From the NCBI GenBank assembly GCA_035500505.1, contig DATJXE010000003.1:70921-134920 (forward strand): a stretch of 64,000 bases of DNA. The letters are read 5' to 3'. The notes below the pieces were generated by a model that worked only from the letters and a program-made list of their open reading frames with translations, did no database searches and was not told where the DNA came from. Source of the stretch: Minisyncoccota bacterium (GTDB lineage Bacteria > Patescibacteriota > Minisyncoccia > Phycocordibacterales > UBA2100). Below are positions 2,732 through 40,200 of the stretch, piece by piece. The translations under genes were made by a program, and so were the position numbers. Each line of letters begins with the position of its first letter. Positions within the stretch are counted from its first letter, which is position 1.

Positions 2732-3145
2732 ATGCTTCCCTACCGCGACAGCGTCCTTACGAAGATCGCCCTCGTCCTTTTCTTCCTCATCATCATCGGC
2801 TACGCGTATTTCGAGGCGCGGGGCATCCTTTTTGGACCATCGATCCAGGTTTCGCAGACCATCGAAGAGGTCTCGAACCCGTACATTGAACTCACGGGCA
2901 CGACGACGCACATAGCCGAGCTCGACATGAACGGACAAGCCGTGCCCGTCACCGAAGCGGGGGTTTTTGACATTCCCTACGCGCTTTCGCCCGGGTACAA
3001 CCGAATCGTCCTGGACGCGAAGGACAAATACGGCAAATCCACCGAAAAAATAATCCAAATAGTCTATACGCCTGCCTCGACCACCCCCGCCCAAACGGCC
3101 GCAACCTCGACTCCGGCAGCCTCATCCACACCAACGACGCCCTGA
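2732..3145 (+). CDS. Small membrane-anchored protein with Thr/Pro/Ala-rich tail, unknown function
   Basis: Starts 4 nt after ftsK stop; N-terminal TM helix; coding-like composition. Confidence 0.5.
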
Positions 3146-3191
3146 TGTATACTGCCCTCTGACCCCAATAGCAGGTAATTCATTAATCACT

Positions 3192-4265
3192 ATGGCACTC
3201 GGAACAAAGAAAAAAGAGAAGGCTCCGCCGAAGGAAGTCGGCACTGGGTCGGACAAAGATATCGAACGCGCGCTCGCGCAGATAAAAACGAAGTTCGGCG
3301 ACGAATCCATCATGATGCTTGGCGCTTCGCCCAAGGTGGACGTCAACGCCATCCCCACGGGCTCTATCGGCGTCGATTGGGCACTCGGCATCGGTGGACT
3401 CCCGCGTGGCCGCATCATCGAAGTGTTCGGTCCGGAAAGTTCCGGCAAAACGACGCTCTCGCTCCATGTCATCGCCGAAGCGCAGAAAAAAGGCGGCATC
3501 TGTGCATTCATCGACGCCGAACACGCGCTCGACCCCGAATACGCCAAAAAGCTCGGCGTGAAGATCCAGGACCTTCTCGTATCGCAACCGGACACCGGCG
3601 AGCAGGCGCTCGAAATAGTTGAATCGCTCGTGCGCTCCGGCAAAATAGACGTCATCGTCGTCGACTCCGTCGCCGCGCTCACGCCCAAAGACGAGATCGA
3701 GGGCGACATGGGCCAATCGCACGTCGGCAAGCAGGCGCGCCTCATGTCGCAGGCGCTTCGCAAACTCACTGCCATCGTATCGAAAACGAAAACCGTCATC
3801 ATTTTCATCAACCAGATCCGCATGCAGATAGGGGTCATGTTCGGCAATCCAGAAACGACCCCGGGCGGCAAGGCGCTGAAATTCTACACATCGGTGCGCA
3901 TCGACATTCGCCGCATCGCGCAGATAAAGAAAGGCGACGAAGTGATGGGCGGCCGCCACCGCGTGAAGATAGTCAAAAACAAGGTCGCAGCTCCCTTTCG
4001 CCAAAGCGAATTCGACATGCTTTACGGAGAAGGCATTTCCAAAGAGGGCGAAGCGCTCGCGCTCGGCGAGAAGCTCGGCCTCGTCCAAAAATCGTCCGGC
4101 GGAGCCTACAGCATGGGCGAAACCAAAATGGGCCGCGGCTATGATGCGGCTCGCACGTATCTCAAAGAGAATAAGCCAGTACTCACCCAGTTATTGAAAG
4201 ACATCCGCAAAGGTCTTCAGGAAGGCGGCGGGGTTGTTGGAAAATCGAGTGGCGAGGAGGAGTAG
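3192..4265 (+). CDS. recA: Recombinase RecA
   Basis: GPESSGKTT Walker A and conserved RecA core including IIFINQIR...GGKALKFY. Confidence 0.95.
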
Positions 4266-4326: not shown

Positions 4327-5664
4327 ATGTCAGCAACAGCTCTTGCCGAAAAATTGGCACGTCCGACGCTTCGCTGTATCGAGTGCGGTAATGTCCAAGA
4401 TCTCTATCGGGAACGCAAGTTCCGTTGCGTGTGCGGCGGCCTCTTCGAGGTCGTGCACAACCACGAAAATCTCTCACTGCTCCGGCAATTTCTGGAATCG
4501 CAGTTCCAGCGCCGCGCGGCGGGATTTATTGAAAGTCCTCCAGGTCGCTCCGGCGTATGGCGTTTCTACGAACTCATCATGCCCGAAATGCGGTCAGACG
4601 AGATGATCACGCTCGGCGAAGGTATTGTGCCAATCGTTCGCGCTGGACCGCACATCAGTCGGTGGGTGGGCGGCGATCTGGATCTCTGGCTCATTCTCGA
4701 AGGTCAGGGTCCGACCGGTTCATTCAAGGATTTCGGCGGCGCCGTGATGATGAGCGTGGCGAAGAAAGCGGGTGTATCGGCCGTCGCATGCGCATCTACC
4801 GGCGATACCTCTGCCATGACAGCCGCATACTCCGCTGTGGCAAACTTTCCCTGTGTAGTTCTTCTGCCACAGGGAAAGTACACGGCCGTGCAGCTGACAC
4901 AGGCAGTCGCCTATGGTGCGCGGGTCATCGATATCCCCGGCACCTTCGACGATTGCATGCGCGTGATGAGTGACCTCGTCGAGCATCACGGGGTTTATCC
5001 GGCGAACAGTCTGAATCCTTCACGCATCGAAGGACACCAGGCGACCGTATTTCTCATCGCGCAGGCGTTCAACTGGATACTACCGGAATGGTTCGCGGTT
5101 CCTGTCGGTAACGGCAGCAACTCATCCTCTATCGGCAAGGGCATGCGACTGCTCCTTGAGCACGGCTTCGTGCAAAAAGGCGCCCGCATCCTCGGCTGTC
5201 AGAGTGAGGCCGCAAACCCACTGGCAGCGTCATGGCAAAAGATCCGTGACATACCGAACGAGCAAAAGCTCTCCTGTTGGCGTAACGTCTACAGGCGGCG
5301 TATCGATCTCGGCGAAACGGTCGCCACGGCGGCACGCATCGGCGACCCAGTCTCGCGCGAGAAAGTCATGCGGGAAATCGTTGCGTCGAACGGGGCCGTT
5401 ACGCAAGCGGACGAAGGAAGCATCGTCCATGCGACCCAGCTCTCGGCTCGAGACGGCATCATGGTCTGTCCGCAAACTGGCATCGCACTTGCGGGACTCC
5501 GCGAGGCGGTTGCCCGCAATGTGGTAAAGAAGGGCGAACGAGTGGTTGTCGTGTCAACGGCTACCGGGCTGAAATTCCCTGAAGCCTATGGCGTGAATGC
5601 AAATGCCATCGAAAAGGCGGCTGATGTAAGCACGAAAACCGTCGCGAAAATGCTCGGTCTCTGA
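4327..5664 (+). CDS. thrC: Threonine synthase (PLP-dependent) with N-terminal zinc ribbon
   Basis: CxxC...CxC ribbon followed by PALP fold with GSFKD lysine motif. Confidence 0.8.
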   Translation: MSATALAEKLARPTLRCIECGNVQDLYRERKFRCVCGGLFEVVHNHENLSLLRQFLESQFQRRAAGFIESPPGRSGVWRFYELIMPEMRSDEMITLGEGIVPIVRAGPHISRWVGGDLDLWLILEGQGPTGSFKDFGGAVMMSVAKKAGVSAVACASTGDTSAMTAAYSAVANFPCVVLLPQGKYTAVQLTQAVAYGARVIDIPGTFDDCMRVMSDLVEHHGVYPANSLNPSRIEGHQATVFLIAQAFNWILPEWFAVPVGNGSNSSSIGKGMRLLLEHGFVQKGARILGCQSEAANPLAASWQKIRDIPNEQKLSCWRNVYRRRIDLGETVATAARIGDPVSREKVMREIVASNGAVTQADEGSIVHATQLSARDGIMVCPQTGIALAGLREAVARNVVKKGERVVVVSTATGLKFPEAYGVNANAIEKAADVSTKTVAKMLGL

Positions 5665-5755: not shown

Positions 5756-6322
5756 ATGGCAATGATCTCATACAATGAAGTGAAGCCGGGCGTCGCGGTC
5801 CTCATCGAGGGCGAGCCGTACGTCTGCACGTGGAACAACATAATGAAAAAACAGCAGCGCCGTCCGGTCAACCAGACGAAGATGCGCCATATCATCAAGG
5901 GCAACTCCATCGAATATTCCTTCCAGCAGTCCGACAAGGTGGAAGAGGCCGAGATCGAATCGCGTCCTGCGGTCTTTATCTACGAAAGGAATGGTGAATG
6001 GTTCTTCCACGATGCCAAAAACAAGTCCAACCGCTTCTCGGTGACGGACGAACAAATGGGCGAATCGGGCAAGTTCCTCAAATCCAATACGGAGGTCGAA
6101 ACTCTCTGGTTCCAGGGCAAGCTTTTCCGCGTGAAGCTTCCCATCAAGGTAGAACTCAAGGTGACCGAGGCGCCGCCGGACGTGCGCGGCAACACCGCGC
6201 AAGGCGGCTCAAAGGTAGTGGAACTCGAAACAGGGGCCTCGCTCGACGTCCCCATGTTCGTGAAGTTGGGCGATGTCATCCGCATCAATACTGAAACAGG
6301 CGAATACGTCGAACGAGTCTAA
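5756..6322 (+). CDS. efp: Elongation factor P
   Basis: KPGKG-type N-terminus and full EF-P length; TACAAT box 6 nt upstream of ATG. Confidence 0.9.
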   Translation: MAMISYNEVKPGVAVLIEGEPYVCTWNNIMKKQQRRPVNQTKMRHIIKGNSIEYSFQQSDKVEEAEIESRPAVFIYERNGEWFFHDAKNKSNRFSVTDEQMGESGKFLKSNTEVETLWFQGKLFRVKLPIKVELKVTEAPPDVRGNTAQGGSKVVELETGASLDVPMFVKLGDVIRINTETGEYVERV

Positions 6323-6356
6323 AGAAAAAGTCCCGCTCAGCGGGACTTTTTTTATT
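6321..6356. terminator. Bidirectional terminator between convergent efp and rpsR
   Basis: A-run, gtcccgc-tca-gcgggac stem, T-run. Confidence 0.65.
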
Positions 6357-6549
6357 TCTGTACGTAGGGCAAAAGGCCCATGAACCTCGCGCGCTTCACT
6401 GCCTGCTCGACGGCGCGCTGCTGCTTTGCGGTGAGGTTGGTGCGCGTGCGGGCCATGACGCGGCCGTGCGGGTTGATGAACTGCTTCAAAAGGTCGACGT
6501 CTTTGTAGTCGACGTGCTGGATATCATTTTGGGTAAGAATGTTGTTCAT
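6352..6549 (-). CDS. rpsR: 30S ribosomal protein S18
   Basis: 65 aa basic protein with S18 signature, in rpsF-ssb-rpsR order. Confidence 0.9.
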
Positions 6550-6553
6550 AGAA

Positions 6554-7009
6554 TTAGAAAGGGATATCGTCGGGGTTAATGTCGTCCTTCGGGTATTCGA
6601 TAGCGCTACCGCCTGAGGGCGCGCCCATATCCTCCGGCATCGATTGCTCGTCGTCGCTCTTGCGAGAACCTCCGCCGCCGGATGAACGCGGACCGAATTG
6701 GACGCGATCGGCGACTATCTCGGTGCGGTATTTCTTCTCGCCGTCCTTCCCTTCCCAGCTGCGCGTCTGCATGCGACCTTCCACGAATGCGGAAGAGCCC
6801 TTCTTGAGGTATTGCGCGACCGTATCGGCCTGACGGCCGAAGACGACGATATTGTGAAAATCCGTTTGCTCCTGCTTCTTGCCGTCGCGATCCTTGTAGA
6901 CGCGGTTGGTGGCGATGGAAAAGCTCGCGACGTTCATGCCGCTCGGGAGCGCGCGGAGTTCCGGATCGCGCGTGAGGTTGCCGAAAACCATTGCTTTGTT
7001 CAGATACAT
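6554..7009 (-). CDS. ssb: Single-stranded DNA-binding protein
   Basis: OB fold MYLNKA...[12 protein letters not shown], Gly-rich linker and acidic DDIPF tail. Confidence 0.9.
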
Positions 7010-35553: not shown

Positions 35554-36657
35554 CTACTTGACTATCGTGGTCGAGGGCGATGAGGTGGCGACGTCCACGA
35601 CCGTGAACGAAACGCGTCCTATTAGAGCCCCGTATTGGGTTACCACGTCGACACGCCACTTGCCGGGTGCGGGATCGAGGAGTTGCGAGTAGCCCTCGTA
35701 GCCGCCATCGCGTCCTCCCTGGATCGGATATTCGATGGTCGCTCTCGTCACCCACGTTCCGCTGGAAGCATCGTAGTAGCGCCACTCGTGCAATATCTGT
35801 GTCGAAAGTCCCGAGGGTGCGAATACCGACGTGTACACGTACACCCTTCCTCCAGGCGTCTCATGGAACACGCTCGGCAGAGGAAGGATGGCGTCGTACC
35901 AAGGTTCTTCTTCCCCGACGAGCGTATACGTGCCCGCGGACGCATCGCGCACGACGCTGTGGTAGACGCCCGCGTCCTTGAGCGAGAGTGGCAGAGGCGG
36001 GATCGCGTTGGTGAAGTAGAGGACGTTGAACAGGACGTAGATGACGGCTATCGCGCGAGCCGTCACGGTCAGCTGCCCCTTCGTTTCGGGGACCACGCGG
36101 GTAAGGAGCGCGATGAAAAGCGCGACGAGCGCGAGCGCGCAGGCACCGCTCGCGGCGAACATCCACGGACCGATGGCGTGGAAGACGACCGGCAAGAAGA
36201 AAATGAAGAACGAGAAGAGCGTCGTGAAGAGAATGGACAGCTGCACCGGCACGCGCACGTAGAAACGCAGAAAACGCTCGTTGCCTAAGAGAAGCGCTGC
36301 GACGAGTATCACAAATATCCAGCTCGCGGCATAATCGGCGCTCCGTGAGTAGAGCGAGAGGAATCCGCTGAAAAGCCCACCGAAGGCGAATTGCACGACC
36401 ACAGGAATGATAGGCGCAGCATCGACCCAGAACTTTTGCCGCAAGCGCCCCGTTTCGATGAGGTTGATAAGAATGATGCCGGCGCTCGAAACGACGAGAT
36501 AAAAAATGAAAAGCGCGTCGGTTGTCCAAAGGTCGACTCGGCGCAAAAGGATTAGGTTGTCGGAAACGAAACCGGCAACGAGCGAAAGCGGCGAGACATA
36601 CCGCTCGTACCAATGCACGAGTTCTTTCACATTTTTGGGAAGATACTGGCGTATCAT
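35554..36657 (-). CDS. Membrane protein with C-terminal beta-rich extracytoplasmic domain (DUF2914-like)
   Basis: ~8 TM helices then a soluble domain; start at MIRQYLPKN, because the longer ORF would run through the att-like repeat and the tRNA. Confidence 0.55.
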   Translation of the reverse strand: MIRQYLPKNVKELVHWYERYVSPLSLVAGFVSDNLILLRRVDLWTTDALFIFYLVVSSAGIILINLIETGRLRQKFWVDAAPIIPVVVQFAFGGLFSGFLSLYSRSADYAASWIFVILVAALLLGNERFLRFYVRVPVQLSILFTTLFSFFIFFLPVVFHAIGPWMFAASGACALALVALFIALLTRVVPETKGQLTVTARAIAVIYVLFNVLYFTNAIPPLPLSLKDAGVYHSVVRDASAGTYTLVGEEEPWYDAILPLPSVFHETPGGRVYVYTSVFAPSGLSTQILHEWRYYDASSGTWVTRATIEYPIQGGRDGGYEGYSQLLDPAPGKWRVDVVTQYGALIGRVSFTVVDVATSSPSTTIVK

Positions 36658-36680
36658 CCGCGCATCATAACAAACTTCGC

Positions 36681-36837
36681 TGTGCGCAGGGGGAGACTCG
36701 GTCACGCGTCGTTTTCTGCTGAAAACGCGCGCGGCCCCGACTCGCGCCGTCGCGCTCCGTCTTTCGAGTCTCTGCTCCCAACGCAAAACGTGTCCGCAAG
36801 GGACACGTTTTGCGTTGGGTGCGCAGGGGGAGACTCG
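36681..36837. repeat. 19-nt exact direct repeat (gtgcgcagggggagactcg) at 36681-36699 and 36819-36837; second copy is the 3' end of tRNA-Leu
   Basis: A duplicated tRNA 3' end is the classic signature of site-specific integration into a tRNA gene; only 119 bp lie between the copies. Confidence 0.6.
36777..36819. other. Perfect 19-bp hairpin with GCAAG loop, abutting the tRNA-Leu 3' end
   Basis: cccaacgcaaaacgtgtcc-gcaag-ggacacgttttgcgttggg; the last three nucleotides are the tRNA's 3' CCC. Confidence 0.6.
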
Positions 36838-36903
36838 AACTCCCATGCCCTTGCGGGCGCTACCACCTCAAGGTAGTACGTCTACCAATTTCGCCACCTG
36901 CGC
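36817..36903 (-). tRNA. tRNA-Leu (anticodon GAG), long variable arm
   Basis: GCGCAGGTGGCGAAATTGGTAGACG... closely resembles E. coli tRNA-Leu; anticodon loop TTGAGGT; T-loop TTCGAGT. Confidence 0.85.
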
Positions 36904-36937: not shown

Positions 36938-37411
36938 CTACTCGCTTTTCTCCACGGCCTTCTCGTCCGTCGGTGCGGTCATCTCCTCGACGATCATCTC
37001 TTTCTCCGCTTCCGTTTCCTTGGCAAAATCTGCGGGGACGCCTTCCGCTTCGGTGGCTCCGACCATGCGCGTGCGGCGCAACTGACGACGCGCTTCGCGC
37101 GCGACTTTTTCGCGGATGTAGTAGAGCTTGGCGCGGCGGACGCTCGAGCGCTTCACCACTTCTATTTTGTCTATCATCGGCGAGTAGAGCGGGAACACTT
37201 TTTCGACGCCAACGCCGGAGAGCGTGCGGCGCACGGTGAATGTGCCGCCCGCTTCGGTGCCGTGCTTGCGAGCCAAGACGAGCCCTTCGAATATTTGGAT
37301 GCGGTACTTCCCTTTTTCCTCGATCTTTTGGTGCACACGCACCGTGTCCCCCGGCCGAAGGTCGAGGTTCTTTCGCATGTCCATGTCTATCGGTGATATC
37401 GTGATCGCCAT
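36938..37411 (-). CDS. rplS: 50S ribosomal protein L19 with acidic C-terminal extension
   Basis: Conserved L19 core [15 protein letters not shown]...; TGCTATAGT box 17 nt upstream. Confidence 0.9.
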
Positions 37412-37661: not shown

Positions 37662-37991
37662 CTACTTCGACGGGTCCGCGACCTGCGGCGCGGGCGACTG
37701 CAGGATGGACTGGTACTGTGCCTGTCGCGCGGATAACGTGCCGAGTTCGCTTCGCAGTTTTGCGGGATCCAACGGCGGCGGTGCAGAAGTGGGCGCTTGG
37801 ACCGAATTCTCTGCCTGGGTCACTGCCGACATTTCATGCACTCCCAGAAGCACCGAGGAGAGAAGTGCAAGAAACGCGATGACGAGAAGGGTGCGCCAGA
37901 GCAGTTCGCCGAGCGCGTGGATATTCTCCGGCTCGCTCCGATAGCTCCAGACCTCCTTGACGCGCGACAATGAGAAAAAGTCGAAGGTCAT
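37662..37991 (-). CDS. Small membrane protein downstream of the pilMNO-like genes
   Basis: One TM helix; overlaps the pilO-like stop. Confidence 0.4.
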   Translation of the reverse strand: MTFDFFSLSRVKEVWSYRSEPENIHALGELLWRTLLVIAFLALLSSVLLGVHEMSAVTQAENSVQAPTSAPPPLDPAKLRSELGTLSARQAQYQSILQSPAPQVADPSK

Positions 37992-38533
37992 GATGAGACG
38001 TGGGCGCTTGTAAGAACGCTGATACGCGCGGTGAGTTGCCAAGAGCTGCCTTGACCAGGACCAGAGCTTGGAAGCTGTTCAAAGTCGAGTTCTTCGACGT
38101 TCGAAGGAAGCGGCAGGGACCCAAAAAGTTGCGCCGCTCTCCACACTTGCGCGAACGTGCCGGTAGATTGCACGACGAACTCGAGCTGGCTCACGCCCGA
38201 CGTCGGATTTTGGTGGGTCGCGGCCGTCGCGGACCCGATGGTCGTCTTCGTGCCGGCCGCCTGCCCGGCACTCTGTATCGCATTGGCGATGCCAACGACG
38301 TCCGTCCCGACGAATCCGTCGAGTGTCGCGCGGTCGGATGCGGTATCCACCACGATCGCATGCAGTTCTATCGCGTTCACCTGCTGCGCGTTCTGAATGC
38401 TCGAAGAGGAAAGCGCTTCGGCGCGCGCGGCGAGGCGCGCAGAGGTGTCGGAAAAAAAGAACCACGCTGCGCCCCACATGGACAACGAAAGTGCGAGTGC
38501 GGCGAACGAACCGTATGTGAGAGAGGTTCGCAT
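37988..38533 (-). CDS. pilO: PilO-like type IV pilus assembly protein
   Basis: N-terminal TM then periplasmic domain; positional with pilM and pilN. Confidence 0.55.
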   Translation of the reverse strand: MRTSLTYGSFAALALSLSMWGAAWFFFSDTSARLAARAEALSSSSIQNAQQVNAIELHAIVVDTASDRATLDGFVGTDVVGIANAIQSAGQAAGTKTTIGSATAATHQNPTSGVSQLEFVVQSTGTFAQVWRAAQLFGSLPLPSNVEELDFEQLPSSGPGQGSSWQLTARISVLTSAHVSS

Positions 38534-38534
38534 A

Positions 38535-39047
38535 TTAGGGGTTGATCTTCATCGTGATAGTAAAACCGCCGCCTTGGGAACCCAAAAGCGCGGAGACCGG
38601 CACCGAAACGTTGCTGAACCGCAGGTCGCTTTGGAGCGCTTGTTGGAACGTGTTCACGTCTCCCGGCGTATCGGCGTGGCCTGCGATCGCAATGGACTGT
38701 TGCGTGACCGAGTAGGAAATATTGTCTACATGGACGCCTTCTCCCCGCTGCGAGAGCGCCGCAAGCAAGGCGTCCAACGATGATGTGGCCGAGACGGGTT
38801 GCAGCGACGTGAGGAGCGCCTTGGTGTGCGCGACCGCCGCACTATCGGCCTTGGCATCGCCGCTTTGTGGAGAGAGGTCCTGCGACGCGGCGGGAGCGAA
38901 TGAGGCGATCGCCAGCGCGGCGGGCGTGAGTGCGATGATAAAAAATGACGCGGATACGAACAGGACCAGCGCCGTCGCAAGCAAAAAACGGCTGCGGAAT
39001 TCCGCTTTCATTCTCTTCTGTGCCGGTGGTGGAAGAAGGTTGGACAT
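38535..39047 (-). CDS. pilN: PilN-like type IV pilus assembly protein
   Basis: Short cytoplasmic N-terminus, TM, periplasmic domain; ATGA overlap with pilM. Confidence 0.55.
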   Translation of the reverse strand: MSNLLPPPAQKRMKAEFRSRFLLATALVLFVSASFFIIALTPAALAIASFAPAASQDLSPQSGDAKADSAAVAHTKALLTSLQPVSATSSLDALLAALSQRGEGVHVDNISYSVTQQSIAIAGHADTPGDVNTFQQALQSDLRFSNVSVPVSALLGSQGGGFTITMKINP

Positions 39048-39049
39048 GG

Positions 39050-40114
39050 TCAATCGCGCAGTGCGAGCCCTATCGCGGTCGCATACTGGAGGGAGTTGCG
39101 CCGTTCGATGGGCGGGATGTATTCGTCGAAGGAACACACGTTGTTCCAGACGTTCGGGCGCTCGACGGGCGCCTGTACCCGTCCCGCGATGTAATCCGCG
39201 AGGCCTTTCATGTTGGCACTGCCGCCAAGGAGAAGCACGTGAGAAACCGGAGAGACGCGTTCGCCGCGATCGTTCCTGCGCGTATCCCAGTAGTTGAAAT
39301 GCCGCGCAACTTCGCTTCCGAGCGCGCTCGCGGCGCCGGAAACGGCCTCGAGGCCGGGCGATTTCACACCGCCTTCGGGAAGAAGGCCCTGTTCATTCTT
39401 CCACAATTGCACTTGTTCTTGCGAAAGATGCATTTTCTCCTTCAGCGCGCGGTCGACGGCTTCGCCGCCGATCTCGACGGTCGACGTAAAAATGGGAATA
39501 CCGGATTTGAGGACCGCGAATCCGGTGCGTTTGAAACCGAAATCGACCAAAAGCGCGATATTCCCCGGTGACATGCGTGGGACCGCGGCGCGGGCTATGG
39601 AGCGCGCCTCTATCTCGAGCGACAGGAGCGAAAATCCCGCGTCCGCGAAGGAGTCCGCATAGCTCTCCGCGAGCTCGCGCGGAAACACGACGACGCCGAT
39701 CTCCTGGGCGTCGCCTTCTTGCCCCGGAATGAGGTCGAAATCGTAGACCGCGGCGGTGGGCGGGATCGGCACGCGCGCCTCGAACTCGAACTCGATCATG
39801 CTGAGTATCTGTTCGCGAGATGAACCCGCGGGCGCGCTCAAGCTGAAGACGAACGCGGATTCTTCCGGAAGCGCGGCATGCACGGCCGTTACACGCGGCA
39901 TCTTCCTTTTTATCGCGCGGAGTGCTTCCGTGAGGCGTGCGGGGTCCTGGATGACGCCCGCAGATACTATTCCTCCGGGAAGCGGCTCCTGCCCCCATGC
40001 TTCCACCTTTCGGCTCCCGCGCCCCGGGCGGCTCAAGGCGATCCACTTGATCGACGCGTCGGAAATGTCTATCCCTGCACAGCGAGGAGAGAGAAAATTC
40101 GGAGCGGGGAACAT
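39050..40114 (-). CDS. pilM: Type IV pilus assembly ATPase-like actin-fold protein PilM
   Basis: Actin-like fold GIDISDASIKW...LVDFGFKRT; internal Met start. Confidence 0.75.
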   Translation of the reverse strand: MFPAPNFLSPRCAGIDISDASIKWIALSRPGRGSRKVEAWGQEPLPGGIVSAGVIQDPARLTEALRAIKRKMPRVTAVHAALPEESAFVFSLSAPAGSSREQILSMIEFEFEARVPIPPTAAVYDFDLIPGQEGDAQEIGVVVFPRELAESYADSFADAGFSLLSLEIEARSIARAAVPRMSPGNIALLVDFGFKRTGFAVLKSGIPIFTSTVEIGGEAVDRALKEKMHLSQEQVQLWKNEQGLLPEGGVKSPGLEAVSGAASALGSEVARHFNYWDTRRNDRGERVSPVSHVLLLGGSANMKGLADYIAGRVQAPVERPNVWNNVCSFDEYIPPIERRNSLQYATAIGLALRD

Positions 40115-40200
40115 GCGCGAGAACAATCCCCCGCGCTTCCCGGCACTCCCAGAAGGACCGGCGCGTTGCATTGTGAAATTATATCATTGCCAGCGACGCA

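What the first reader, a model, noticed from the sequence alone, without database searches (positions are those of the whole stretch)
36681..36903. tRNA-Leu 3' end duplicated 138 bp downstream with an intervening 19-bp hairpin: att-like scar
The last 19 nt of tRNA-Leu(GAG), from the T-loop through C74, recur exactly at 36681-36699. The 119 bp between the copies contain a perfect 19-bp stem-loop that uses the tRNA's own CCC. A direct repeat of a tRNA 3' end is the standard footprint of tyrosine-integrase-mediated insertion. Here the insert is far too small to carry genes. This suggests a remnant left after loss of an island, or a miniature integrative element. The distal copy lies 24 nt upstream of a membrane-protein gene start.
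Basis: partly seen in the sequence, partly recalled or inferred. Interest (0 to 1): 0.55.

Follow-up and report, generated by a model that had tools for sequence, protein, structure and literature searches.

The report
Structured tRNA-mimic module behind tRNA-Leu
The repeat is real, but it is not a one-off integration scar: it is one compact copy of a widespread, folded, conserved module that candidate-phyla (Paceibacterota) bacteria carry directly behind many tRNA genes, which copies pieces of the neighbouring tRNA and which I could not find described.

Summary
tRNA-Leu(GAG) lies at 36818-36903 on the minus strand. Its last 19 nt (C56-C74) recur exactly at 36682-36700, with a perfect 19-bp hairpin in between.

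It is not an isolated scar. A covariance model built from this copy and 19 relatives finds 69 copies in 80 related Paceibacterota loci, and 60 of them lie just 3' of a same-strand tRNA. A metagenome scan found at least 120 more, behind tRNAs with at least 36 different anticodons and behind tmRNA.

Each copy has these parts:
- one or more hairpins;
- a segment complementary to the neighbour's T-loop and T-stem;
- a covarying three-way-junction domain with an invariant G.U pair, so the fold is specific to the sense strand;
- a copy of the neighbour's C56-N73.

About 40% of copies also carry the neighbour's acceptor 5' strand, which makes them tRNA-like. An att duplication cannot produce that.

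The closest relative (83% protein identity) has the orthologous module. It is about 95% identical, while synonymous sites are only 49-56% identical, which points to purifying selection.

Best reading: a compact member of an undescribed family of tRNA-end-mimicking structured modules that arose by insertion or duplication. What it does biochemically is unknown. Rfam has no match.

The parts
36818..36903 (-). tRNA-Leu(GAG). G1 is at 36903, discriminator A73 at 36820 and C74 at 36819. CCA is not encoded.
   Evidence: ARAGORN; Rfam tRNA at 51 bits; sequence.
36819..36837 (-). A1, the proximal copy of the 19-nt repeat. It covers tRNA positions C56-C74: the 3' part of the T-loop, the T-stem 3' strand, the acceptor 3' strand, A73 and C74.
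36777..36819 (-). H, a perfect 19-bp hairpin with a 5-nt loop. The inner GC-rich 8-bp stem is followed by UUUGCGUU, which looks like an intrinsic terminator. Its ACGCAAA...UUUGCGU core resembles the P0 hairpin that precedes the domain in other family members.
   Evidence: The simple terminator scan did not call it.
36773..36776 (-). AGCA linker. Together with the first base of A' it reads AGCAG, which is conserved in the compact subfamily (window, L007, L014).
36763..36772 (-). A' (GAGACUCGAA), the reverse complement of the T-loop plus the first 3 nt of the T-stem 3' strand. It can pair with A2 (helix P1) or with A1.
   Evidence: In L055, A' follows a change in A2 rather than in A1.
36701..36762 (-). 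D, the conserved domain. It has a J 'AAG' junction. Helix P2 (36739-36761) contains GAC/GUC, a tandem-GA internal loop and a GCGACGGCGC hairpin. Helix P3 (36700-36736) has a UUUUC-AGCA-GAAAA tip and an invariant G.U pair. This window's copy has one C.A mismatch in P3.
   Evidence: Alignment and RNAalifold; covariation counts; covariance-model hit 36682-36775 at 93.6 bits.
36682..36700 (-). A2, the distal exact copy of C56-C74.
   Evidence: Across the family the copy is usually exactly 18 nt (C56-N73) plus C74.
36658..36681 (-). The 24-nt spacer before the ATG. It contains an extended -10-like TGTTATGAT (36664-36672) about 6 nt before the start codon, which suggests a leaderless-type promoter of the DUF2914 gene. 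It is not part of the module.
   Evidence: My own reading of the sequence. 23 of 24 nt are conserved in L303, and a similar motif is present in L004.
35554..36657 (-). DUF2914 membrane-protein gene, the downstream neighbour and synteny anchor.
36938..37411 (-). rplS (ribosomal protein L19), the upstream neighbour and synteny anchor.

Best explanation
The 36682-36819 stretch is a compact member of a large, apparently undescribed family of structured modules. Paceibacterota (CPR bacteria) carry these modules on the sense strand immediately 3' of tRNA and tmRNA genes.

A full module reads: terminator hairpin; copy of the neighbour's acceptor 5' strand; hairpin P0; a segment A' complementary to the neighbour's T-loop and T-stem 3' strand; a conserved three-way-junction domain D; and an exact copy (A2) of the neighbour's C56-N73(+C74). 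The full unit therefore folds as a tRNA-like RNA. It has the neighbour's acceptor stem, discriminator and T-stem, but its T-loop is replaced by an extended helix plus domain D. The window's copy lacks the acceptor 5' strand and has only one hairpin.

Shown here: the architecture, the covariation, the strand specificity, the linkage to tRNA genes, and the conservation of the orthologous copy well above the neutral rate.

Inferred, step 1: the unit first arrived by insertion or duplication at the tRNA 3' end, with the junction at U55|C56. It arrived in the common ancestor of this genome, L303 and L301, and it spreads between tRNA loci within genomes.

Inferred, step 2: it is transcribed on the tRNA strand and is kept because the folded RNA is used. 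The most likely use is as a mimic of the tRNA's 3'-terminal half that is read by enzymes acting on tRNA ends, such as RNase Z, RNase P and the CCA-adding enzyme, and possibly the cognate synthetase for full-length copies. The biochemical role itself is not established.
For: Recurrence:
- 43 of 326 tRNA genes in 80 related loci have a copy (2 or fewer mismatches) of their own last 15 nt within 60-420 nt downstream. My estimate of the chance expectation is about 0.1.
- Covariance model R1 gives 69 hits, of which 60 lie within 450 nt 3' of a same-strand tRNA.
- The metagenome scan gave at least 120 loci. 97 of 121 matches lie behind tRNAs with at least 36 anticodons, and others lie behind tmRNA.

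Structure:
- 92% of alignment cells are paired, against 75% in shuffles and at most 44% when the pairing is slid.
- 104 cells show double changes, against 34 in shuffles (0 of 500 shuffles reach the observed value).
- One G.U pair is invariant in 20 of 20 sequences, so the fold is strand-specific.

Precise copy: in 36 of 46 cases A2 is exactly C56-N73.

tRNA-likeness: the neighbour's acceptor 5' strand is present in 36 of 88 modules. 18 are exact, against 1.0 expected from shuffled pairings. In the GTDB set the figure is 9 of 43.

Constraint:
- Between the window and L303, the trailer plus spacer (162 nt) differs by 8 substitutions and 1 indel.
- Four-fold sites of the flanking genes are 49% and 56% identical, and the L19-tRNA spacer is about 60% identical.
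- Family-II trailers at tRNA-Leu are 58-78% identical where four-fold sites are 31-47% identical.
- L033 and L034 keep P1 through WC-to-G.U changes.

Insertion-like behaviour:
- The module is absent at tRNA-Leu in L004, L006, L017, L304 and L305.
- L004 has a module at tRNA-Val instead.
- Several domain families occupy the same tRNA-Leu locus in different lineages.
- Tandem arrays occur.
- Some copies within one genome share variable stems.

No Rfam family matches.
Against: - There are no expression data, so a transcribed RNA is inferred only from strand-specific G.U pairs and sense orientation. Folded single-stranded DNA would also tolerate G.T.
- The window's copy lacks the acceptor 5' strand, so by itself it cannot form an acceptor helix. 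It also has a C.A mismatch in P3 and a short A'.
- In some vertically inherited copies (L008, L013, L022, L030, L301) the acceptor part of A2 has decayed while D persists. A2 may therefore be an insertion footprint rather than a functional part.
- A hairpin that looks like a terminator usually separates the tRNA from the module, so co-transcription is uncertain.
- The constraint estimate for this particular copy rests on one close pair (window and L303).
- No mechanism is known that would copy three separate pieces of a neighbouring tRNA into a conserved scaffold.
Confidence: 0.5

Rival explanations
1. It is a purely selfish, gene-less miniature integrative element (MITE- or CIME-like) acting at the DNA level. 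A recombinase encoded elsewhere inserts it at the T-loop (U55|C56) of tRNA and tmRNA genes. The element supplies a replacement 3' end and terminator, or makes an 18-19-bp target duplication. The folded domain together with A' would then be its recombination site, for example a folded single strand comparable to integron attC or CTX phage attP, rather than a useful RNA.
For: - The repeat geometry equals that of T-loop-class att sites.
- Dehalococcoides ssrA islands provide a precedent: a serine recombinase, a 20-bp repeat starting in mid T-loop, a conserved motif just upstream of the repeat, and tandem arrays.
- The family shows patchy distribution, family turnover, arrays and spread within genomes.
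- In L062 a 6.4-kb island with a large serine recombinase and a DGR lies between two near-identical modules.
- Serine-recombinase genes lie 0.5-3 kb downstream of tRNAs in L011, L048, L069, L070, L072, L196, L216 and L276.
- A2's acceptor part decays in old copies.
Against: - The orthologous copy is about 95% identical where neutral sites are about 50% identical. An immobile selfish insert should decay.
- Copies of the acceptor 5' strand cannot arise by att duplication or target-site duplication.
- One domain family sits behind at least 36 anticodons, whereas tRNA integrases are target-specific.
- Recombinase islands next to tRNA-Leu have no flanking A copies or modules.
- No recombinase homologue was found in the window by tblastn.
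- No copies were found in viral contigs with the specific pattern.
- D cores also sit after rplK with unrelated P1 arms.
Confidence: 0.27
2. It is a host tRNA trailer that evolved in place as a terminator or processing structure of the tRNA-Leu transcript. The repeat would be a by-product of selection for pairing with the tRNA 3' end, and no insertion was involved.
For: - The hairpin starts at C74 and looks like an intrinsic terminator.
- L303 and L301 share the trailer.
- The trailer is strongly conserved.
- In L006 the tRNA end abuts the next gene's ATG, so tRNA 3' processing probably defines downstream RNA ends in these genomes.
Against: - The same domain, with near-identical sequence, occurs behind dozens of unrelated tRNAs and behind tmRNA. 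That requires copying between loci.
- It is absent from most relatives at this locus.
- Different domain families occupy the same locus.
- Exact 18-nt copies with a fixed C56 boundary are not expected from convergent pairing selection.
Confidence: 0.12
3. It is a decayed scar: the two att ends left after internal deletion of a gene-carrying island.
For: - There is a direct repeat of the tRNA 3' end.
- The pduO-like gene that normally lies between tRNA-Leu and the DUF2914 gene is missing here.
Against: - The interior is a conserved unit supported by covariation, shared with hundreds of loci.
- There are no gene fragments inside it.
- It is conserved in L303.
- pduO is also missing in L004, which has no module at tRNA-Leu.
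Confidence: 0.04
4. It is a chance repeat or an assembly artefact.
For: None beyond the fact that all the genomes are metagenome-assembled.
Against: - None of 100 shuffles gave a second match.
- The same architecture appears in many independent assemblies.
Confidence: 0.01

Closest known systems
attL/attR repeats of integrative elements in tRNA and tmRNA genes, T-loop sublocation. Examples are the Dehalococcoides ssrA genomic islands (PMC3146451) and tycheposons (bioRxiv 10.1101/2020.12.28.424599).
   Same: - The direct repeat runs from mid T-loop to the 3' end of the gene (18-20 nt).
- A conserved sequence lies directly upstream of the distal repeat.
- Tandem arrays occur behind the tRNA or tmRNA.
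- The tRNA stays intact.
   Different: - There is no recombinase or any gene inside the unit.
- One domain family serves at least 36 tRNA species plus tmRNA, instead of one integrase per tRNA.
- There is an internal segment complementary to the T-arm.
- Many copies also duplicate the acceptor 5' strand.
- The interior is a structure supported by covariation and is conserved well above the neutral rate.
Repeated extragenic structured elements: REP/BIME elements, and MITEs such as Correia elements (from my own knowledge).
   Same: - They are short, non-coding, multicopy and lie 3' of genes.
- They form hairpins on the sense strand.
- Some have been co-opted as terminators or RNA-processing sites.
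- Presence is patchy and arrays occur.
   Different: - The arms of the closing helix differ from copy to copy and match the neighbouring gene's sequence.
- The modules are tied to tRNA 3' ends (87% of covariance-model hits).
- No partner transposase has been identified.
tRNA-like RNAs that borrow tRNA-end recognition: the tmRNA tRNA-like domain, viral 3' tRNA-like structures, and mascRNA or plant t-elements (from my own knowledge).
   Same: Full-length modules combine an acceptor stem, a discriminator and a T-stem with a non-tRNA body.
   Different: - Each module copies the specific tRNA next to it.
- The T-loop is replaced by an extended helix and a three-way junction.
- There is no anticodon arm.
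- The window's copy lacks the acceptor 5' strand.
Functional tRNA trailers such as 3'ETS-leuZ of E. coli (from my own knowledge).
   Same: A conserved sequence lies directly 3' of a tRNA-Leu gene and may have a role of its own.
   Different: 3'ETS-leuZ is a short, unstructured sponge specific to one operon. It is not a multi-locus structured family that copies tRNA segments.
Folded single-strand recombination sites: integron attC and CTX phage attP (from my own knowledge).
   Same: - Two inverted arms close a variable structured region.
- The fold is strand-specific.
- Units form arrays, with an older cargo-bearing unit lying further from the entry site (L062).
   Different: - There are no R/L core boxes (GTTRRRY).
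- No integron integrase is nearby.
- The orthologous copy is conserved.
- Copies of the acceptor 5' strand are present.

Membership tests
Integrative-element att scar in a tRNA gene (T-loop class) | A direct repeat equal to the tRNA segment from the T-loop to the 3' end | tested here: met
   C56-C74 is repeated exactly. Across the family the copy is usually exactly C56-N73.
Integrative-element att scar in a tRNA gene (T-loop class) | A recombinase gene, or its remnant, between or next to the repeats | tested here: not met
   Only 118 bp lie between the repeats and they contain no gene fragment. tblastn with the L062 serine recombinase finds nothing in the window. Tyrosine recombinases in the window were not screened.
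Integrative-element att scar in a tRNA gene (T-loop class) | Element lineage specific for one tRNA target | tested here: not met
   The same domain family lies behind at least 36 anticodons and behind tmRNA. Compare 'each tRNA its specific integrase'.
Integrative-element att scar in a tRNA gene (T-loop class) | Only the 3' portion of the tRNA is duplicated | tested here: not met
   This holds for the window's own copy, but 36 of 88 and 9 of 43 family members also copy the acceptor 5' strand.
MITE | Terminal inverted repeats that are constant among copies | tested here: not met
   The closing arms (A' and A2) are inverted repeats, but they differ between copies and match the neighbouring tRNA.
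MITE | Short target-site duplication of fixed length | tested here: inconclusive
   The 18-19-nt repeat has a fixed C56 boundary in family Ia but measures 13-21 nt in other families. This is much longer than usual duplications.
MITE | Multicopy, plus an autonomous partner that shares the ends | tested here: inconclusive
   The window has one copy and the relatives have 69 copies in 1.19 Mb. The only gene-carrying unit (L062) may be an island dropped into a tandem array.
Intrinsic (rho-independent) terminator | A GC-rich hairpin followed by a U-tract | tested here: inconclusive
   The inner 8-bp stem is followed by UUUGCGUU, but the simple scan did not report it. 78 of 86 relatives have hairpins at this position and 26 have a UUUU run.
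Any Rfam 15 RNA family | A covariance-model match | tested here: not met
   Only tRNA and sub-threshold chance hits appear in the window, and in L020, L022, L028, L030, L034, L052, L054 and L065.
tRNA-like RNA (acceptor stem plus T-stem mimic) | Paired acceptor 5' and 3' strands ending in the discriminator | tested here: not met
   The window's copy has only a 5-of-7 match (GAGCAGA) to GCGCAGG. The feature is met in about 40% of family-Ia copies and in L028.
tRNA-like RNA (acceptor stem plus T-stem mimic) | Processing by RNase P or RNase Z, or CCA addition | not testable with these tools
   This needs transcript-end mapping or enzyme assays.
REP/BIME | Association with a RAYT (TnpA-REP) gene in the genome | not tested
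   Only a 64-kb window and flanks of 20 kb or less were available.
Integron attC | R''/L'' and L'/R' boxes with a GTTRRRY core | tested here: not met
   By reading the sequence, the junctions are ...UCGAA|AG and GUGAC|CGA. No GTTRRRY core is present.

The most novel reading that the evidence does not exclude
The modules are retargetable tRNA mimics: a conserved scaffold (P0 plus the three-way junction) that acquires the acceptor strands, discriminator and T-stem of whichever tRNA or tmRNA it sits behind. Two novel readings remain open.

(a) They give rise to a parallel set of processed, possibly aminoacylatable, anticodon-less RNAs. These could serve outside translation or act as decoys for enzymes or toxins that attack tRNA ends.

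(b) The T-arm-complementary segment A' acts as a base-pairing guide, in RNA or in folded single-stranded DNA. That guide would direct insertion into the T-loop of any tRNA-like gene, which would make this a guide-programmed, gene-less insertion system.
Probability: 0.2. Interest if true: 0.9.

Novelty: new variant of a known kind. Interest (0 to 1): 0.75.

Why it matters
If this is right, roughly one in six to eight tRNA genes in a major CPR lineage carries a conserved companion element that copies the tRNA's own ends. In the sampled loci, 43 of 326 tRNAs have an exact-type copy and there are 60 tRNA-linked covariance-model hits.

That would be a new family of structured non-coding elements in organisms with very small genomes. 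It would also be a new way in which tRNA 3' ends are used, whether for processing, mimicry or insertion targeting.

There are practical consequences too. A repeat of a tRNA 3' end in these genomes cannot be read as evidence of an integrated island. Island and prophage finders that rely on partial-tRNA repeats would give false positives here.

The family is large, supported by covariation and easy to model (covariance model R1), so it can be tested directly with metatranscriptomes and simple enzyme assays.

Tried and rejected
- Exact-protein look-ups of the window's L19 and DUF2914 proteins returned nothing. Close relatives came only later, through the homologue search.
- Short-pattern scans of viral contigs were almost all chance matches. 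11 of 12 hits were coding GC-rich DNA. I did not inspect the 88 hits of the 16-mer, and their number is about what I expect by chance. Only L082 was genuine. The specific two-part pattern found nothing in viral contigs.
- I first read the L062 island (serine recombinase plus DGR between two modules) as an 'autonomous' version. I then down-weighted this. Recombinase islands beside tRNA-Leu in five other loci have no A copies or modules, and identical tandem modules exist without cargo.
- I considered and dropped several motifs recalled from memory because the sequence does not fit or Rfam is silent: hammerhead and other small ribozymes, kink-turn, C/D-box guides, a retroviral-type primer-binding site (no complement to A73/CCA), retron a1/a2 repeats, casposon TIR/TSD, and integron attC.
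- The ORF that runs through the module in frame with the DUF2914 gene (430 aa here, annotated as 420 aa in L303) is not coding. The two genomes differ there by a 1-nt indel.
- Five successful full-text literature searches found no description of such modules.
Full report
**1. The observation**

tRNA-Leu(GAG) lies at 36818-36903 on the minus strand. A local Rfam scan gives tRNA at 51 bits; the whole-window gathering scan did not list it.

On the tRNA strand the last 19 nt, C56 through A73 and C74, recur exactly at 36700->36682. On the plus strand the two copies are 36819-36837 and 36682-36700, with 137 nt start to start. None of 100 shuffles gave a second match, even with 3 mismatches allowed.

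Between the copies lies a perfect 19-bp hairpin with a 5-nt loop (36777-36795 with 36801-36819). It begins with C74. An outer 10-bp helix extends it: GAGACUCGAA (36772->36763) is the reverse complement of the T-loop plus the first three T-stem bases.

The distal copy ends 24 nt before the ATG (36657) of a DUF2914 membrane-protein gene.

**2. The organism and the locus**

L19 relatives place the window in Candidatus Paceibacterota/Kaiserbacteria, a CPR lineage. The source is a 367-kb MAG contig (P0001).

The gene order tRNA-Arg, tRNA-Val, rplS, tRNA-Leu(GAG), [pduO-like], DUF2914, tRNA-His is widely conserved. The pduO-like gene is missing from the whole 64-kb window. It is also missing from this locus in L004 and, going by the called genes, in L301 and L303. 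In L006 the tRNA's C74 directly abuts the pduO ATG.

**3. It is not a one-off**

At the same tRNA-Leu locus, many other species carry the same layout: hairpin, inverted copy of the T-arm half, an 80-110-nt domain, and a direct copy of the tRNA's own 3' end. The repeat sequence changes together with each genome's tRNA.

The layout is not specific to tRNA-Leu. tRNA-Val, His, Arg, Ser, Lys and Leu(CAG) show it too. In all, 43 of 326 tRNA genes have a copy (2 or fewer mismatches) of their last 15 nt within 60-420 nt downstream. My estimate of the chance expectation is about 0.1.

The internal domains fall into several families that recur behind different tRNAs. The window's copy belongs to family Ia. 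Its domain is nearly the same as those behind tRNA-Val in L007 and L059.

**4. Breadth**

I scanned metagenomes with a family-Ia pattern of two conserved blocks. Of 121 matches, 97 have a same-strand tRNA within 400 nt upstream. These tRNAs cover at least 36 anticodons. Several of the remaining matches follow tmRNA 3' ends, or tRNAs cut off at contig edges.

Among the 46 copies with an exact distal repeat, 36 repeat exactly C56-N73 (18 nt), usually plus C74. The specific pattern found nothing in viral contigs. One genuine copy, in a tandem array, sits at the end of a viral-predicted contig (L082).

**5. Structure**

I aligned twenty compact family-Ia members, including the window's copy. The consensus has:
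- P1, formed by A' and the 5' part of A2;
- a short helix G[C/A]C:G[G/U]C that covaries;
- a tandem-GA internal loop;
- hairpin P2b;
- a long hairpin P3 with a G.U pair that is invariant in 20 of 20 sequences.

The covariation counts are as follows:

| measure | observed | control |
|---|---|---|
| cells paired | 92% | 75% in shuffles; at most 44% when slid |
| cells with double changes | 104 | 34 in shuffles |
| predicted pairs with compensatory changes | 20 of 28 | 13.6 in shuffles |

For the three measures tabulated above, and for the covariation score, none of 500 shuffles reached the observed value. The invariant G.U and further G.U pairs make the fold specific to the tRNA-sense strand. 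In L055, A' follows a substitution in A2 and not in the tRNA, so P1 is the A':A2 helix.

The covariance model R1 finds one copy in the window (36682-36775, 93.6 bits). It finds 69 in the 80 GTDB loci. Of those, 60 lie within 450 nt 3' of a same-strand tRNA, and the hits include members of the other domain families. No Rfam 15 family matches any of them.

**6. Many copies are tRNA-like**

Between the tRNA and A' there is usually a terminator-like hairpin and then a second hairpin, P0. In 36 of 88 family-Ia modules the 7-nt acceptor 5' strand of the neighbouring tRNA sits between those two hairpins. 18 of these are exact, against 1.0 expected from shuffled pairings; with up to one mismatch the count is 36 against 8.1. 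In the GTDB set the figure is 9 of 43, across several families.

A full module therefore reads: acceptor 5' strand, 2 nt, P0, about 3 nt, T-stem 5' strand, then an extended helix plus three-way junction in place of the T-loop, then T-stem 3' strand, acceptor 3' strand and discriminator. L028, whose tRNA-Leu is identical to the window's, has this full form.

The window's copy is a compact variant. It has no acceptor 5' strand (only GAGCAGA, 5 of 7), a single hairpin fused to C74, a short A', and one C.A mismatch in P3.

A copy of the 5' strand cannot come from an att or target-site duplication.

**7. Conservation**

Closer relatives were reached through the DUF2914 protein.

L303 (83% protein identity) has the orthologous arrangement: L19, tRNA-Leu, hairpin, module, A2, 24 nt, ATG. 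R1 scores its module at 88 bits.

| region compared (window vs L303) | identity |
|---|---|
| tRNA start to ATG (246 nt) | 9 substitutions + 1 indel |
| trailer plus spacer (162 nt) | about 94.5% |
| four-fold sites, DUF2914 gene | 49% (90 of 183) |
| four-fold sites, L19 gene | 56% (40 of 71) |
| L19-tRNA spacer | about 60%, with a 24-nt indel |

L303 has U:A where the window has C.A in P3.

L301 (also 83%) keeps the D core behind tRNA-Leu but lacks A' and A2. L304, L305 and L004 have no module there, although L004 has one behind tRNA-Val. This pattern fits one gain in the ancestor of the window's genome, L303 and L301, followed by constraint.

In a second clade, family-II trailers at tRNA-Leu are 58-78% identical where four-fold sites are 31-47% identical. 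Yet the acceptor part of A2 has decayed in several of those genomes.

**8. Other contexts**

R1 also hits D cores directly after the rplK stop codon, on the sense strand, at an orthologous position in L033, L034 and L078. There the closing helix is made of unrelated sequence, and L033 and L034 keep it through WC-to-G.U changes. The D core is therefore a general structured element found 3' of genes, with tRNA ends as its main home.

**9. Links to recombinases**

In L062, two near-identical family-III modules flank a 6.4-kb island. The island carries a large serine recombinase and a DGR (variable repeat, template repeat, and a reverse transcriptase with the GxxxSQ motif). A homologous reverse transcriptase precedes modules in L288.

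Serine-recombinase genes lie 0.5-3 kb downstream of tRNAs in eight further loci. However, the five that sit beside tRNA-Leu have no flanking A copies or modules. The link to a recombinase therefore remains weak.

The closest published parallel is the Dehalococcoides ssrA islands. They have a serine recombinase, a 20-bp repeat starting in mid T-loop, a conserved motif upstream of the repeat, and arrays. Tycheposons illustrate the usual rule of one integrase per tRNA, which this family breaks.

**10. Interpretation**

The direct repeat and its T-loop boundary look like an attachment site, and the family behaves as if it spreads by insertion or duplication. But several features argue that the unit is a retained, structured element, most simply a transcribed RNA that mimics the 3'-terminal half of its neighbour tRNA (and, in full copies, the acceptor/T-stem minihelix):
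- the strand-specific fold supported by covariation;
- the T-arm-complementary segment;
- the acceptor 5'-strand copies;
- the use of essentially every tRNA and of tmRNA;
- conservation well above the neutral rate.

I could not establish what that RNA does, or how three separate pieces of a neighbouring tRNA come to be copied into a constant scaffold. The DNA-level alternative, a gene-less insertion element whose fold is its recombination site, is not excluded. I give it about a quarter of the weight.

The 24-nt spacer after A2 carries an extended -10-like TGTTATGAT just before the ATG. It is conserved in L303, and a similar motif is present in L004. I read it as the DUF2914 gene's own leaderless-type promoter, not as part of the module.

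**11. Limits**

- All comparison genomes are MAGs or metagenome contigs.
- There are no expression data.
- The constraint estimate for this copy rests on one close pair.
- The literature check was limited to the held library.

Noticed in passing
L034 16684-16771; L033 16169-16262; L078 16025-16118: A D-core structured element sits directly after the rplK (L11) stop codon on the sense strand, at an orthologous position where no rplA follows. Its closing helix is unrelated to tRNA and is kept through WC-to-G.U changes. No Rfam family matches.
   Followed up: partly
L062 533-7170: A 6.4-kb island lies between two near-identical modules behind tRNA-Ser(GCT). It carries a large serine recombinase (2732-4057, minus strand), HTH regulators and a complete DGR. 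The DGR has a variable repeat at 4818-4939, a template repeat at 5322-5443, and a reverse transcriptase at 5842-6849 with the GxxxSQ motif. A 63%-identical reverse transcriptase also precedes modules in L288.
   Followed up: partly
L011, L048, L069, L070, L072 (0.5-1.3 kb downstream of tRNA-Leu); L196, L216, L276: Large-serine-recombinase genes lie repeatedly just downstream of tRNA genes and are oriented against them. No repeat of the tRNA 3' end was detected within the available flanks.
   Followed up: partly
L008, L009, L010, L013, L019, L020, L022, L023, L025, L026, L029, L030, L065, L072, L073: tRNA-Leu(GAG) is inverted relative to rplS in about 15 of 67 loci. This points to an old inversion at this junction. 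All family-II modules are in this group.
   Followed up: no
window 36658-36903 versus L006 621-1270 and L028 8201-9070: The pduO-like ATP:cob(I)alamin adenosyltransferase gene normally lies between tRNA-Leu and the DUF2914 gene. It has no tblastn match anywhere in the 64-kb window, and it is also missing from the L004 locus. In L006 the tRNA's C74 directly abuts the pduO start codon.
   Followed up: partly
window 36664-36672 (minus strand): An extended -10-like TGTTATGAT lies about 6 nt before the DUF2914 ATG. A similar TGCTATAGT is present in L004. This suggests leaderless mRNAs.
   Followed up: no
window 36818-36903: The whole-window Rfam scan at gathering threshold listed five tRNAs but not tRNA-Leu. 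The local scan found it at 51 bits. This is probably a filter effect on a class-II tRNA.
   Followed up: yes
window 36938-37411: Ribosomal protein L19 has a roughly 40-residue Glu/Ala/Lys-rich C-terminal extension. Close relatives share it (matches reach residues 151-157).
   Followed up: no
window 37988-40171: A cluster of type IV pilus assembly-like genes (a PilM-like gene at 39050-40171, plus small membrane proteins) lies downstream of the tRNA-Arg/Val pair. I identified them only by reading the ORF translations.
   Followed up: no
L245, L261, L272, L273: Family-Ia modules also follow tmRNA (ssrA) 3' ends (…GGUUCGAUUCCCGCCAUCUCCAC). Their A' matches the tmRNA T-arm.
   Followed up: partly
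L041_His, L073_His: In the tRNA-His modules the acceptor 5'-strand copy is preceded by a G. The copy may therefore include the G-1 identity nucleotide.
   Followed up: no
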